This document shows positions 6,411 to 40,865 of a stretch of 41,602 nucleotides of DNA, piece by piece; position 1 is the first letter of the stretch; each line of letters begins with the position of its first letter. The position numbers and the translations under genes are program-made. The DNA lies in assembly GCA_000442015.1 (NCBI GenBank), contig KE560467.1:1-41602 (forward strand). Direction: 5' to 3'. The notes below the pieces were generated by a model. The model was given only the letters and a program-made list of their open reading frames with translations. It made no database searches and had not been told where the DNA came from. Source of the stretch: Rozella allomycis CSF55. Lineage: Eukaryota.

Positions 6411-6727
6411 AGTCTTGCACAAATATTGCAATCGTTTTGAAAGTCGATAATCAACTATTATATATCCTCTTGCAACACTTCAATCAAGATACCAATGCAA
6501 ACCATAATTTCATCAAATTTGGCGCATACTGCATCATGATGGTCACCGTCATCAACTGTCAAATCTAGCATTCCCTGTAATTACGAAATAGCTAAGGTAC
6601 CTCTTAATATCTTGGCTTTTCACTATTAAAAAATAATTTCATCCGATTCAACATAAAAGAATAGAAAATAGTTGTTTTGTGAAGAAATTTATTTTTATCT
6701 CATCTCTTAATTAACTCCCCGTCCGAT

Positions 6728-9423
6728 TTAACAAGCACTGCGAGACTTGTACTCCATGTTAGTACTCTCATTAACTCTACGGTCTTGCAAAAAAAGGTCA
6801 ACAACGTCCCCATGGCCGTTCTGAGAACTTGGATCTACTCTAGAATCTTGAAGCAAAAGTTTAACAACTTCTGAGTGCCCGTTCTGTGAAGCGAATCGAA
6901 TAGCATCATTACGCTCATCACTTGGATCTACTCTAGGATCTTGCAACAAAAGTTTAACCACTTCTGCATGACCGTTCATTGAAGCCATTCGAATAGCACC
7001 ATTGTTCCAACCACGTGGATCTACTCTAGAATCTTGAAGCAAAAGTTTAACCACTTCGACATAACCGTTCTGTGAAGCGAATCGAATAGCATAATTGCTA
7101 TGAGCACTTGGATCTACTCTAGGATCTTGCAACAAAAGTTTAACCACTTCTGCATGACCGTTCTTTGAAGCGATTTGAATAGCATAATTGTCCCGAGAAC
7201 CTGGATGTACCCTAGAATCTGTCAACAAAAGTTTAACAACTTTTAAGTGGCCGTACTGTGAAGCCATTTGAATAGCATTATTACGCTGAGTACTTGGATC
7301 TACTCTAGGATCTTGCAACAAATGTTTGACTACTTCTGAGTGCCCGTTTTGTGAAGCAATATGAATAGCATAATTGTGCCACACACTTGGATCTACCCTA
7401 GAATCTTGCAACAAATGTTTGACTACTTCTGAGTGCCCGTTCATTGAAGCCATTCGAATAACATAATCGTTCCAACCACGTGGATCTACTCTAGAATCTT
7501 GAAGCAAAAGTTTAACAACTTCTGAGTGCCCGTTCTCTGAAGCGAATCGAATAGCATAATCGACGCGAGAACCTGGATCTACCCTAGAATCTTGAAGCAA
7601 AAGTTTAACAACTTCTGAGTGCCCGTTCTCTGAAGCCAATCTAATAGCATAATTGATGCGAGAACCTGGATCTACCCTAGAATCTTGCAACAAAAGTTTA
7701 ACCACATCTGCATGACCGTTCTTTGAAGCCATTTGAATAGCATAATCGCTCCAACCACGTAGACCTATTCTAGAATCGTGAAGCAAAAGTTTAACAACTT
7801 CTGAGTGCCCGTTCTGTGAAGCGAATCGAATAGCATCATTACGCTCATCACTTGGATCTACTCTAGGATCTTGCAACAAAAGTTTAACCACTTCTGCATG
7901 ACCGTTCATTGAAGCCATTCGAATAGCACCATTGTTCCAACCACGTGGATCTACTCTAGAATCTTGAAGCAAAAGTTTAACCACTTCGACATAACCGTTC
8001 TGTGAAGCGAATCGAATAGCATAATTGCTATGAGCACTTGGATCTACTCTAGGATCTTGCAACAAAAGTTTAACCACTTCTGCATGACCGTTCTTTGAAG
8101 CGATTTGAATAGCATAATTGTCCCGAGAACCTGGATGTACCCTAGAATCTGTCAACAAAAGTTTAACAACTTTTAAGTGGCCGTACTGTGAAGCCATTTG
8201 AATAGCATTATTACGCTGAGTACTTGGATCTACTCTAGGATCTTGCAACAAATGTTTGACTACTTCCGCATGACCGTTCTGTGAAGCAATGCGAATAGCA
8301 TAATTGTCCTGAGAACCTGGATCTACCCTAGAATCTTGCAACAAAAGTTTAACCACATCTGCATGACCGTTCTTTGAAGCCATTTGAATAGCATAATCGC
8401 TCCAACCACGTAGACCTATTCTAGAATCGTGAAGCAAAAGTTTAACAACTTCTGAGTGCCCGTTCTGTGAAGCAATATGAATAGCATAATTGTGCCACAC
8501 ACTTGGATCTACTCTATAATCTTGCAACAAAAGTTCAACCACTTCGGCATGACCGTTCTTTGAGGCGATTCGAATGGCATCATTTTTCTTATAACCTGGA
8601 TCAACTCTCGAATCTTGCAATAAAATTTTAACAACTTTCGCGTGACCGTTTTGTGAACCATTGTGAAGAGCACCATTGTCGGAATCACTTGGATCTACTC
8701 TAGAATCTTGCACCAAGAGTTTAACAATTTCTGCATGACCGTTATTTGAAGCCAATCTAATAGCATAATTGAAGCGAGAGCCTGGATCTACCCTAGAATC
8801 TTGCAACAAAAGTTTAACAATTTCTAAATGNCGTTACGCTGATCACTTGGATCTACTCTAGAATCTTGAAGCAAAAGTTTAATCACTTCGACATAACCGT
8901 TCTGTGAAGCGAATCGAATAGCAGAATTGCTATGAGCACTTGGATCTACCATAGAATCTTGCAACAAAAGCTTAACAATTTCTAAATGACCATTCTTAGA
9001 CGCCATAATGATAGCGTTATTTTCAAAAACACTCGGATCAATTATCGGTAAATGAATCATCATTGACACATATTGATTGAGACCGTACTTACAGGCAAAC
9101 ATAAACGCATAATTTGCAGTCTTTTGAGAACAAATGTTTTTCACTTCTAAAGCTTTGAGGAAATCCACCAGTTCTTCAAGTTCTCTTTTAGTATCAAACA
9201 TGTGCCTGCAAGTGTCTATCTGTAGAAATTTACCACATTTCTGGTTGATTAGTTTTTGAATAATGTATGGACATTTCCATGAAAAATGTTTTTCTGGAGC
9301 TTGATGAAGGATTGATTCTGAGCAAACCAGATGATGCCATTGGGAAGTCCTTGAGATTTGCTTTATGTCAGTTAAGCTTAAGTGTGACAATATTATGTGC
9401 CAAATCTCATATGGTAAGTTCAT
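6728..9423 (-). CDS. F-box + long ankyrin-repeat protein (about 24 or more 31-aa repeats), split only by an assembly N at 8831
   Basis: MNLPYEIWHIILSHLSLTDIKQISRTSQWHHLVC F-box, followed by near-identical repeats GHxEVVKLLLQDSRVDPxxxxNxAIxxASxN. Intronless. Confidence 0.88.
6790..9010. repeat. Tandem array of 93-bp units with higher-order block duplications
   Basis: Conserved core GGATCTAC(T/C)CTAG(A/G)ATCTTG every 93 bp. Identical blocks recur at offsets of 930 (7201 vs 8131), 651 (7750 vs 8401) and 1116 (7375 vs 8491) bp, all multiples of 93. Confidence 0.95.
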
Positions 9424-38526: not shown

Positions 38527-38619
38527 TTAACAAATAAATTTAAAATTTCATTGACATTTTTGGTAGTTAATCATTTTAATTTCCATTTCAATGTGAAGAC
38601 AATTTAAGCCACCAGCCAA

Positions 38620-40865
38620 ATGTTGATATCACAAACAAAATCATGGAAAGCTTTAGAAGCGCACGTAAACACTGTAGCAAACAAAATAAATCTTTCTAAA
38701 GAATTTGAAGCCAACAAGAATAGGTTTTCACAATTCAGTCGACTGTTTCAGCCTAATGGACAGAGCAACGACCCAAAGATTCTTTTAGACTTTTCCAAAA
38801 ACTTGATTAATGAAGAAACATTTAAATTGTTGATGGAGGTAGCTAAAGAAGCGAATGTTGCAAAATTGAGGGACGAAATGTTTCGAGGGGGGCCAATAAA
38901 TACTACAGAGAAGAGAGCCGTTTTGCATGTTGCTTTGAGGAATAGAAGCAATACTCCGATTTTTGTGGATGGAAAAGATGTTATGCCAGAGGTTAACCAA
39001 GTGCTTGACCAAATGAAGAAACTTAGTGAGAGTGTGAGAAGTGGTAGTTGGAAAGGGTATACTGGCAAAGAGATTAAAAGTGTTGTGAATATTGGAATTG
39101 GTGGTTCTGATTTGGGTCCATTGATGGTCTGTGAAGCTTTGAAGCCCTACGCACATGAAAAATTGTCTGTGCATTTTGTTTCGAACATTGATGGCACTCA
39201 TTTAGCTGAAACATTGAAGAAAGTTGATCCAGAGACTACATTGTTTATAATCGCATCAAAGACGTTTACGACGCAAGAAACGATTACTAATGCGCAGTCA
39301 GCCAGACAATGGTTTTTAAAGCACGCGAAAGAAGAGAAATTCGTAGCGAAACATTTTGTTGCTCTTTCGACTAATGAAAGTGAAGTGACCAAGTTTGGTA
39401 TTTCTGTTGAAAATATGTTTCGTTTTTGGGATTGGGTTGGTGGAAGATACAGTCTTTGGAGTGCGATTGGTCTTTCCATTTCAATCTACATTGGACACGA
39501 CAAGTTTTTAGAATTGCTTGAAGGCGCTCATTTGATGGATTTGCATTTTCAAAAAACAGAATTTGAAAATAATCTTCCTGTGATTTTGGCAATGATTGGA
39601 ATTTTATACAATAATTTTTTTGGCGCGCAGACCCATGCAATACTCCCCTATGATCAATACATGCATCGGTTCGCAGCTTACTTTCAACAAGGAGATATGG
39701 AATCTAATGGAAAAGGTGTAACAAGAGAAAATGTGAGAGTTGACNATATCGGAAGCAACATCTATTTTCAGGTCCTATAGTAAACATAGTTGCTGAGATA
39801 TACGGTGGAAGGTTTAGTTTCGTGTTGGATTTCACATTATTATTGCATATTTGTGTCCAATAACAAGTATTATTAAACTTTCGAGACATTATCCCGGAGA
39901 CTTTATCCACGCCGAAATAAGGTGAGTTTGTATTCGAGGAGAAAATGTTATTAACTCAACATGCCAATAATCCCGGTTCGTAAACTCCCCGTCCGATAGA
40001 AATATTAACAATATAAAAAACGTATTTTTCCAAAGTTAATTCAGGAATATATCATTGATTGATAGGTTGAAGTATGTTTGAACATCTTCTGGGCAAATTC
40101 CATTCTTTTCTGGTGAAGGAAGTTATCATCAAGAGTATCAGCCATTAACTCATATCTTTCTATTTCTTCAATGTCAATTTAGTCTTGGCATGTGTTCATC
40201 AAGCTTTTTCTCCTCATTATTTGGTCTGGAATATATGAAGAATAAAAGCCAGCTCTCCAGTCACCTTGGATGATTTGTTGAATAAAAGATATNATTCAAC
40301 TGGCCCAATACTCTGGGGTGAGCCTGGCACTAATGGTCAACACGCCTTTTATCAATTGATCCACCAAGGAACTAAAATAATCCCATGTGATTTTCTTGCT
40401 CCAATTGTTTCTCACAATCCAATAAACAACAATCTTCATCATGAAATTTTATTATCAAACTTTTTCGCTCAAACGGAAGCTTTAATGAAGGGTAAAAGTG
40501 AACAACAAGTGAAGAAGGAACTATCCAATCTCCCACAAGCAGAAGTTGATGCGCTTTGTCCACACAAAGTATTTACTGGAAACAGACCAACCAATTCTAT
40601 AATGTTTCATAAATTGGATCCAAAGACTTTGGGTGCATTGATTGCTTTGTACGAACATAAGATCTTTGTTCAAGGCGCCGTTTGGAATATCAATTCATTT
40701 GATCAGTGGGGTGTTGAATTGGGAAAACAACTGGCAAAGGTAATCCAAGTAATTCATCGTGTTTAGGCTATCCTTCCAGAGTTGAAAGATAACGCTCAAG
40801 TGAACACTCATGATTCAAGCACCAATGGATTGATCAACTTTTATAAACAAAATCGTCTCTGGTAG
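38620..40865 (+). CDS. PGI1: Glucose-6-phosphate isomerase (interrupted in the assembly by a misplaced contig at 39746-40292)
   Basis: [63 protein letters not shown], then after the second [47 protein letters not shown]. Confidence 0.96.
40041..40292 (-). pseudogene. 3' end of the Crinkler-like pseudogene, on a misplaced contig
   Basis: CTTGGATGATTTGTTGAATAAA at 40265 overlaps the same sequence at 40919. The minus strand continues [11 protein letters not shown]...[16 protein letters not shown]..., stop at 40041. Confidence 0.6.

What the first reader, a model, noticed from the sequence alone, without database searches (positions are those of the whole stretch)
6713..39997. Shared motif ATCGGAC(G/T)GG(G/T)AGTT(T)A just downstream of three unrelated effector-like genes
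Seen: (TA)AACTCCCCGTCCGAT-like copies at 6713-6727 (abutting the ankyrin gene stop), 10153-10169 (89 bp after the F-box-LRR stop), 39981-39997 (43 bp after the CRN pseudogene stop) and inverted at 15827-15843. The first three have the same orientation relative to transcription, and I found none beside core genes. Four near-exact GC-rich 15-17-mers in such AT-rich DNA are unlikely by chance. Inferred: either a 3'-UTR element common to effectors, or the end/recombination site of a mobile element that carries these gene cassettes.
Basis: partly seen in the sequence, partly recalled or inferred. Interest (0 to 1): 0.75.

Follow-up and report, generated by a model that had tools for sequence, protein, structure and literature searches.

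The report
Repeat-end word beside Rozella effector genes
A 17-base word found four times in this stretch of the fungal parasite Rozella is most likely the conserved end of a multi-copy jumping element rather than a signal common to effector messages, and two of its copies bracket one ankyrin gene as if it were cargo, which is untested.

Summary
The four copies are real (0 of 100 shuffles) but not equivalent.

Copies a (6711-6727) and d (15827-15843) lie in one 88-bp homologous block. Public contigs pile on their bins at 20-120 times single-copy depth, with several different tails, so the block is a dispersed repeat. Copy d sits inside a hAT relic, not beside an effector.

Copies b (10153) and c (39981) share only 20 bp. 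Flanks of b are single-copy; c lies in a 547-bp fragment misplaced into the GPI gene. The word follows 3 of 8 effector-like genes.

Best reading (0.5): the terminal word of a non-autonomous, probably rolling-circle (HUH) transposon family, with long and short ends. The geometry resembles Helitron2 ATIRs or Replitron direct repeats, but the hairpins are weak and no empty site or transposase link was shown, so it is filed under neither. Rival: a 3' cis-element (0.2). Boldest reading (0.15): b and a are direct repeats around a 3.46-kb F-box-ankyrin cassette.

No genome or RNA was available.

The parts
6711..6727 (-). Core word, copy a ('long' type), directly after the stop of the F-box-ankyrin ORF
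6728..6750 (-). 23-bp head 5' of copy a; 21 of 23 identical to the head of d; weak 5-bp stem; supplies the last codons and stop of the ankyrin ORF; on + it ends CTTG followed by T
   Evidence: z -1.39
6665..6710 (-). AT-rich tail 3' of copy a, shared with d and with other contigs that then diverge at different points
   Evidence: (tables 4, 7)
15804..15886 (+). Copy d block (head + core 15827-15843 + tail), lying in hAT transposase coding sequence
15478..16315 (+). hAT-like relic, CAG...CTG ends, 5-bp target duplication at 15473-15477 and 16316-16320; paralogous empty site near 12160-12180
   Evidence: relatives P0004, P0008 hit PF05699
10150..10169 (-). Copy b ('short' type: core + CGA), 89 nt after the F-box-LRR stop; flanks at single-copy depth
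   Evidence: (bin 10008-10391)
39978..39997 (-). Copy c ('short' type: core + CGA), 43 nt after the putative stop of a CRN-like relic
39746..40292 (.). 547-bp fragment between single Ns, placed inside the GPI gene; overlaps 40919-40940 by 22 nt; probably misplaced by the assembler
6711..10169 (-). 3,459-bp stretch bracketed by b and a in direct orientation: candidate cassette with the F-box-ankyrin gene and a small orphan ORF (9579-9791)
   Evidence: mobility not shown
6728..9423 (-). F-box-ankyrin gene without evident introns (assembly gap at 8831; start coordinate approximate)
10259..12109 (-). LRR ORF with an F-box-like N-terminus (Pfam gave LRR only; F-box by eye)

Best explanation
The 17-bp word is the conserved terminal signal of a multi-copy, non-autonomous transposon family of Rozella, most likely moved by a rolling-circle HUH enzyme encoded elsewhere. 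It occurs in two forms. The long end (a, d) is a 23-bp head with a weak stem, the word, and an AT-rich tail of ragged length. The short end (b, c) is the word plus CGA with unrelated flanks. Shown: the two forms, the multi-copy nature of the long form, and its position inside a hAT relic. Inferred: that they are element ends, that the enzyme is HUH-type, and that the ends sit near effector genes because both accumulate in the same rearranged islands. Whether long and short ends pair as inverted repeats (Helitron2-like) or direct repeats (Replitron-like) is open; the only plausible pair in the window (b to a) is direct.
For: a-d flanks align beyond chance on both sides (0 of 1000 shuffles each), b-c flanks do not (591 and 465 of 1000). 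Summed contig depth is 52-101 times baseline in a's bin and 20-121 times in d's bin in 4 of 4 runs, against 0.3-1.2 times in b's bin; d's bin holds no ankyrin repeats. Loose ends show at least four other tail or core variants (table 7). d interrupts collinear hAT sequence. No terminal inverted repeat or target duplication was seen around a or d. The word lies 22 nt from a CTTG|T boundary in a and d; Helitron2 3' ATIRs lie 20-30 bp from the end, upstream of a hairpin (PMC3627910, passages). A Fusarium non-autonomous Helitron2 keeps only 27 bp of the 5' and 166 bp of the 3' end (PMC5148889, passages). Replitrons have direct terminal repeats, a right-end hairpin and fuzzy right ends (PMC10288648, passages). 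A second multi-copy repeat near 14878-14930 has a real hairpin (z -4.1).
Against: The head hairpins are not significant (z -1.39 and +0.82; 20 and 158 of 200 shuffles fold as well), nor are those at b and c (z -0.10, -0.35). No empty site for a, b or c was seen; only 15 of 66 joints and 24 of 577 loose ends were shown. No Rep or helicase gene was found among the 18 ORFs scanned. The a-d boundary is one pairwise boundary; a's own end is known only to within about 25 nt. b and c match at 19 of 20 nt with no flank similarity, which fits selection on a cis-element equally well. Summed contig depth is not a copy number: the floor is only about 2-17 copies if every 31-mer were its own contig, and other organisms in the runs are not excluded. 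Three copies 0-89 nt behind a stop on the sense strand (naive P about 4e-4 to 1e-3, post hoc) are not explained by island residence alone.
Confidence: 0.5

Rival explanations
1. The word is a cis-acting 3' element (RNA-binding-protein site, 3'-end or termination signal) of a subset of effector-like genes. The long form is the stop codon plus UTR start of one expanded gene family, and fragments of it landed at a and d.
For: 3 of 3 gene-adjacent copies are 0-89 nt after a stop on the sense strand. b and c keep 19 of 20 nt with sharp edges. In both a and d the triplet before the word is a stop in the same frame (TAA, TGA).
Against: 5 of 8 effector-like 3' ends have no match better than 7 mismatches (one window was cut to 89 nt and two are disturbed by duplications). 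d is inside transposase sequence. None of the 5 ankyrin homologs printed, including the named Rozella paralog P0033, ends in the head peptide, and 5-mer matches in 11 of 128 proteins were single and scattered. No stable fold, no Rfam match at gathering level.
Confidence: 0.2
2. b and a are direct-repeat recombination or nick sites that release the 3.46-kb F-box-ankyrin unit as a circle (cassette mobility by replicational release or a site-specific recombinase).
For: b (short) then cargo then a (long) in direct orientation, 3,459 bp. The order matches Replitron anatomy (PMC10288648, passages). An earlier scan note reports separate Rep and Pif1 genes in this genome (not tested here).
Against: DNA just inside b is at 1.2 times baseline, so this unit has not multiplied. 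No b-a joint among the 15 joints shown. No recombinase among the ORFs scanned. Interiors of b and c differ after 3 nt. Replitron-1 repeats are 6 bp, with 52-53 bp of conserved end.
Confidence: 0.15
3. The word is an internal or terminal-inverted-repeat motif of an ordinary cut-and-paste MITE or other dispersed repeat; b and c are decayed remnants.
For: Rozella holds seven TIR superfamilies (PMC5751038, passages). The block is multi-copy. a-b and a-c downstream flanks score weakly (32 and 21 of 1000 shuffles, uncorrected over 12 tests).
Against: No TIR or target duplication seen at a or d. Neutral decay would not leave 19 of 20 nt intact with unrelated flanks. b-d and c-d downstream flanks are at chance (592, 629 of 1000).
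Confidence: 0.12

Closest known systems
Helitron2 / Helentron (HLE2) ends and non-autonomous derivatives such as FoHeliNA1, DINE-1/HINE (PMC3627910, PMC5148889, PMC4067079, PMC11417382; passages only)
   Same: A short word at a sharp end in one form and about 22 nt inside the end, before a stem, in the other; short shared 5' end, longer shared 3' end; no target duplication seen.
   Different: No inverted long/short pair enclosing an element in the window; hairpins weak; T^T insertion not shown; word 17 bp (8-15 in Bao and Jurka, under 18 in HELIANO); no RepHel gene linked.
Replitrons (PMC10288648; passages only)
   Same: Direct terminal repeat, right-end hairpin, ragged sequence beyond the right repeat: matches the b to a order.
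   Different: Repeat 17 bp against 6 bp; only 20 bp of left end shared; no Rep gene; passages seen name plants, algae and protists, not fungi.
Canonical Helitron1, including Pleurotus HELPO2 with a CTTG end (PMC4289320; passages only)
   Same: CTTG followed by T at the shared boundary of a and d; ragged other side.
   Different: No 16-20-nt hairpin about 12 nt upstream; no verified 5' TC end or A^T empty site.
BatrREP-1/-2, unclassified repeats downstream of M36 proteases in Batrachochytrium salamandrivorans (PMC9926174; passages only)
   Same: An unclassified repeat sitting downstream of expanded effector-like genes in an early-diverging fungus.
   Different: Those track one gene family; here the neighbours are unrelated genes and the shared part is as short as 20 bp. 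Sequences were not compared.
ToxB Helitron-like element of Pyrenophora tritici-repentis (bioRxiv 10.1101/2025.11.13.688278; passages only)
   Same: Helitron-like ends proposed to copy an effector unit; nested hAT elements nearby.
   Different: There, tandem units with defined edges are shown in long reads; here the bracketed unit is not multiplied.

Membership tests
Helitron1 (HLE1) | 3' CTRR end | tested here: inconclusive
   Boundary reads CTTG|T in a and d; CTTG is not CTRR but is reported for HELPO2.
Helitron1 (HLE1) | 16-20-nt hairpin about 11-12 nt upstream of the 3' end | tested here: not met
   Only a 5-bp stem that includes the end; z -1.39 and +0.82.
Helitron1 (HLE1) | 5' TC and A^T empty site | tested here: inconclusive
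   A candidate TC near 5832 is post hoc and flanked by G, not A; no empty allele among the joints shown.
Helitron2 / Helentron (HLE2) | 3' ATIR 20-30 bp from the end, upstream of a hairpin; 5' ATIR 0-2 bp from a T end | tested here: inconclusive
   Spacing fits (22 nt in a and d; a T 1-2 nt before b and c) but the true ends are not established.
Helitron2 / Helentron (HLE2) | Hairpins at both ends | tested here: not met
   No significant fold at a, b, c or d (20, 79, 63, 158 of 200 shuffles fold as well).
Helitron2 / Helentron (HLE2) | ATIRs inverted at the two ends of one element | tested here: not met
   In the window only d faces b or c; d is embedded in collinear hAT sequence and c is misplaced. 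Genome-wide pairs could not be tested.
Helitron-like elements (any) | Autonomous partner with Rep and helicase sharing these ends | not testable with these tools
No genome held.
Replitron | Short direct terminal repeats | tested here: inconclusive
   b and a are direct repeats 3,459 bp apart; not shown to be ends of a mobile unit.
Replitron | pE194/CRESS-related Rep transposase | not testable with these tools
   None among 18 ORFs scanned; rest of the genome unavailable.
TIR transposon / MITE | Terminal inverted repeats with target-site duplication | tested here: not met
   None seen at a or d blocks or around the a-d pair.
Structured RNA / tRNA-derived SINE | Rfam or ARAGORN match | tested here: not met
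   No match at gathering score; 0 tRNA genes. Region b was covered only.
3'-UTR cis-element | Present in the mature mRNA | not testable with these tools
   No RNA holder listed.

The most novel reading that the evidence does not exclude
Rozella uses a 17-bp direct terminal repeat, read by an HUH Rep (possibly the unfused Rep/Pif1 pair noted elsewhere in this genome), to copy or release unrelated effector genes as cassettes: a eukaryotic counterpart of IS91/ISCR-type gene mobilisation. The b-a unit with its F-box-ankyrin gene would be one such cassette.
Probability: 0.15. Interest if true: 0.75.

Novelty: new variant of a known kind. Interest (0 to 1): 0.4.

Why it matters
If the word marks rolling-circle element ends, it gives a handle on how a compact, early-diverging fungal parasite reshuffles its F-box, ankyrin and CRN-like genes, and a probe for finding the mobilising enzyme. 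If short and long ends bracket genes genome-wide, that would be a cassette-like effector mobility system. If they do not, it is an unannotated repeat family of local interest. One scan of the assembly decides between these.

Tried and rejected
Whole genome: none held, so no genome-wide scan.

Collections. Viral contigs: 1 match to the 17-mer, in a phage-like contig, and 0 to the head. Prokaryote genomes: 1 match to the 20-mer, not read. Plasmids and phages: no match. I treat all as chance-level; none gave Rozella DNA.

RNA: no RNA holder listed; this is no evidence either way.

a-d as ends of one 9-kb element: rejected. The idea that the head is hAT coding sequence: unresolved, because the paralog model P0001 may splice over the block.

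Likeness to 5S rRNA loop C, LSU rRNA, a tRNA-Asp/Glu 3' end and the Stowaway TIR: all recalled from memory; Rfam and ARAGORN gave nothing; dropped.

A 920-bp Helitron1 at 5832-6749 carrying the aspartyl protease: post hoc junction, no hairpin; not adopted.

Six-frame Pfam scans of the flanks: nothing under E 0.3. The CRN-like relic stayed unidentified.

Scan look-ups by sequence: 0 windows; by place near: 0.

Ten paper searches listed no description of this repeat; none used the motif letters as a term, and no supplements or Repbase entries were seen, so absence from print is not established.
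Full report
Setting. The window is a 36% GC, gene-dense eukaryotic scaffold. Close homologs are named Rozella allomycis CSF55 (P0001; P0033), and earlier scan notes place the genome there. No whole genome was held, so everything genome-wide below is indirect.

Observation. Four copies of ATCGGAC(G/T)GG(G/T)AGTT(T/A)A lie at 6711-6727 (a, minus), 10153-10169 (b, minus), 15827-15843 (d, plus) and 39981-39997 (c, minus). None of 100 shuffles gave four matches. A weight matrix finds no fifth copy: 28-30 bits against 12 for the next site. 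Distances of 0, 89 and 43 nt from the stops are right.

The copies fall into two types. a and d share 88 columns at 82%: a 23-bp head (21 of 23 identical), the word, and an AT-rich tail of about 45 bp; both flanks beat 1000 of 1000 shuffles. b and c share the word plus CGA, 19 of 20 nt, and nothing else (591 and 465 of 1000 shuffles score as well). Of the 12 flank comparisons, two more were weak (a-b 32, a-c 21 of 1000) and eight were at chance.

The long type is a dispersed repeat. Contigs of four public DNA runs were laid on 5400-16900 (c was not covered). Summed depth is 52-101 times baseline in a's bin and 20-121 times in d's bin, against 0.3-1.2 times in b's bin. a's bin includes ankyrin repeats, which may inflate it; d's does not. 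One contig at depth 3984 (baseline about 220) lies over a's tail, and loose ends show further variants of tail and core. The tool warns that summed depth is no copy number; my floor is 2-17 copies. Only 15 of 66 joints and 24 of 577 loose ends were shown, so empty sites could be hidden.

Context of d and c. d lies within a hAT relic (15478-16315) that has CAG...CTG ends, a 5-bp target duplication and a paralogous empty site near 12160-12180. A Rozella paralog aligns on both sides of d in order, and relatives hit PF05699. So d is not beside an effector, and a and d cannot be the inverted ends of one 9-kb element. c lies in a 547-bp piece between single Ns that splits GPI and overlaps the start of the next gap-bounded piece by 22 nt. 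It is probably misplaced and belongs with the relic at 40919-41602. That this relic is a Crinkler is recalled resemblance; Pfam and a homolog search (0 of 91 candidates) did not confirm it.

Link to effector-like genes. The word follows 3 of 8 effector-like 3' ends; the other five have no match better than 7 mismatches within 200 nt (one window cut to 89 nt, two disturbed by duplications). All four copies lie in effector or relic islands, which by my hand-drawn limits cover 45% of the window (P 0.04 for four, 0.09 for three independent sites). Three sense-strand placements within 100 nt of a stop have a naive P of 4e-4 to 1e-3, post hoc. The link is suggestive, not general.

Mechanism. A long end and a short end that share one word, with no terminal inverted repeat or target duplication seen, is the anatomy of rolling-circle (HUH) elements. 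In Helitron2 the 5' ATIR lies 0-2 bp from the end and the 3' ATIR 20-30 bp inside, before a hairpin (PMC3627910, passages); here the word is 22 nt from a CTTG|T boundary in a and d. FoHeliNA1 keeps 27 bp of the 5' and 166 bp of the 3' end (PMC5148889, passages). Replitrons have direct terminal repeats, a right-end hairpin and fuzzy right ends (PMC10288648, passages); b then the F-box-ankyrin gene then a is a direct pair of 3,459 bp in that order. Against this, none of the four hairpins is significant, no Rep or helicase was found among 18 ORFs, no empty site was seen, and DNA inside b is single-copy. I put 0.5 on element ends, 0.2 on a 3' cis-element, 0.15 on true cassette sites and 0.12 on an ordinary TIR repeat.

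The cis-element rival deserves weight. b and c are nearly identical with sharp edges, and a and d both have a stop triplet directly before the word (TAA, TGA). It fails as a general effector signal and could not be tested, since no RNA holder was listed.

Membership and novelty. It works like the ends of an HUH element but fails the hairpin tests for HLE1 and HLE2 and lacks a linked transposase, so I file it under no family. It has no counterpart in the viral, plasmid, phage, prokaryote or metagenome collections beyond isolated core matches and no Rfam or tRNA match. An unclassified repeat downstream of effector genes has precedent in Batrachochytrium (PMC9926174, passages), and Helitron-like copying of an effector in Pyrenophora (bioRxiv 10.1101/2025.11.13.688278, passages). 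Ten paper searches listed no description of this repeat, but none used the motif letters and supplements were not seen.

Verdict. A real, apparently undescribed repeat word; probably element ends; effector cargo unproven but directly testable with the assembly. Interest 0.4.

Noticed in passing
window 14878-14930: A second multi-copy repeat (bin depth 4326 in X1, 1813 in X5) with a significant hairpin (z -4.1, 0 of 200 shuffles). On the minus strand the hairpin is followed after about 12 nt by ATAG|T, a better Helitron-like 3' end than the motif block; a mitochondrial-type GC cluster is an alternative.
   Followed up: partly
window 24299-24360 and 28868-28930; 11912-12412 and 15231-16779: Effector-like islands are flanked by long direct duplications of core-gene ends: the 3' end of the acyl-CoA dehydrogenase-like gene (78%), and the F-box-LRR 5' end plus what reads as MUS81 exon 1 (87-94%). 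This suggests islands grow by duplication with insertion.
   Followed up: partly
window 15478-16315: hAT-like relic with a 5-bp rather than 8-bp target duplication and an empty paralogous site; hAT5-like by recall.
   Followed up: partly
window 39745-40293 and other single Ns (3692, 8831, 16496, 16600, 19863, 24521, 25103, 27549, 33497, 40918): Single-N gaps mostly flank near-identical duplicated stretches: probable assembly artefacts that break GPI, the ankyrin array, the AAA-ATPase and an F-box-LRR gene.
   Followed up: partly
window 9579-9791 (-): Small orphan ORF or exon between copy b and the F-box-ankyrin gene; no Pfam match.
   Followed up: partly
window 9952-10045: A short stretch with a TATA-like word and purine-rich repeats that other contigs share and then leave (loose ends).
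   Followed up: no
window 5991-6410 (+): Stand-alone retropepsin-like aspartyl protease; Atlas look-alikes in Mucoromycota, nematodes and giant viruses at score 0.91; about 3-fold depth in X1.
   Followed up: partly
window 6633-6645 (-), approximate: A partial second copy of the head-core junction about 70 nt downstream of copy a, possibly a decayed tandem copy.
   Followed up: no
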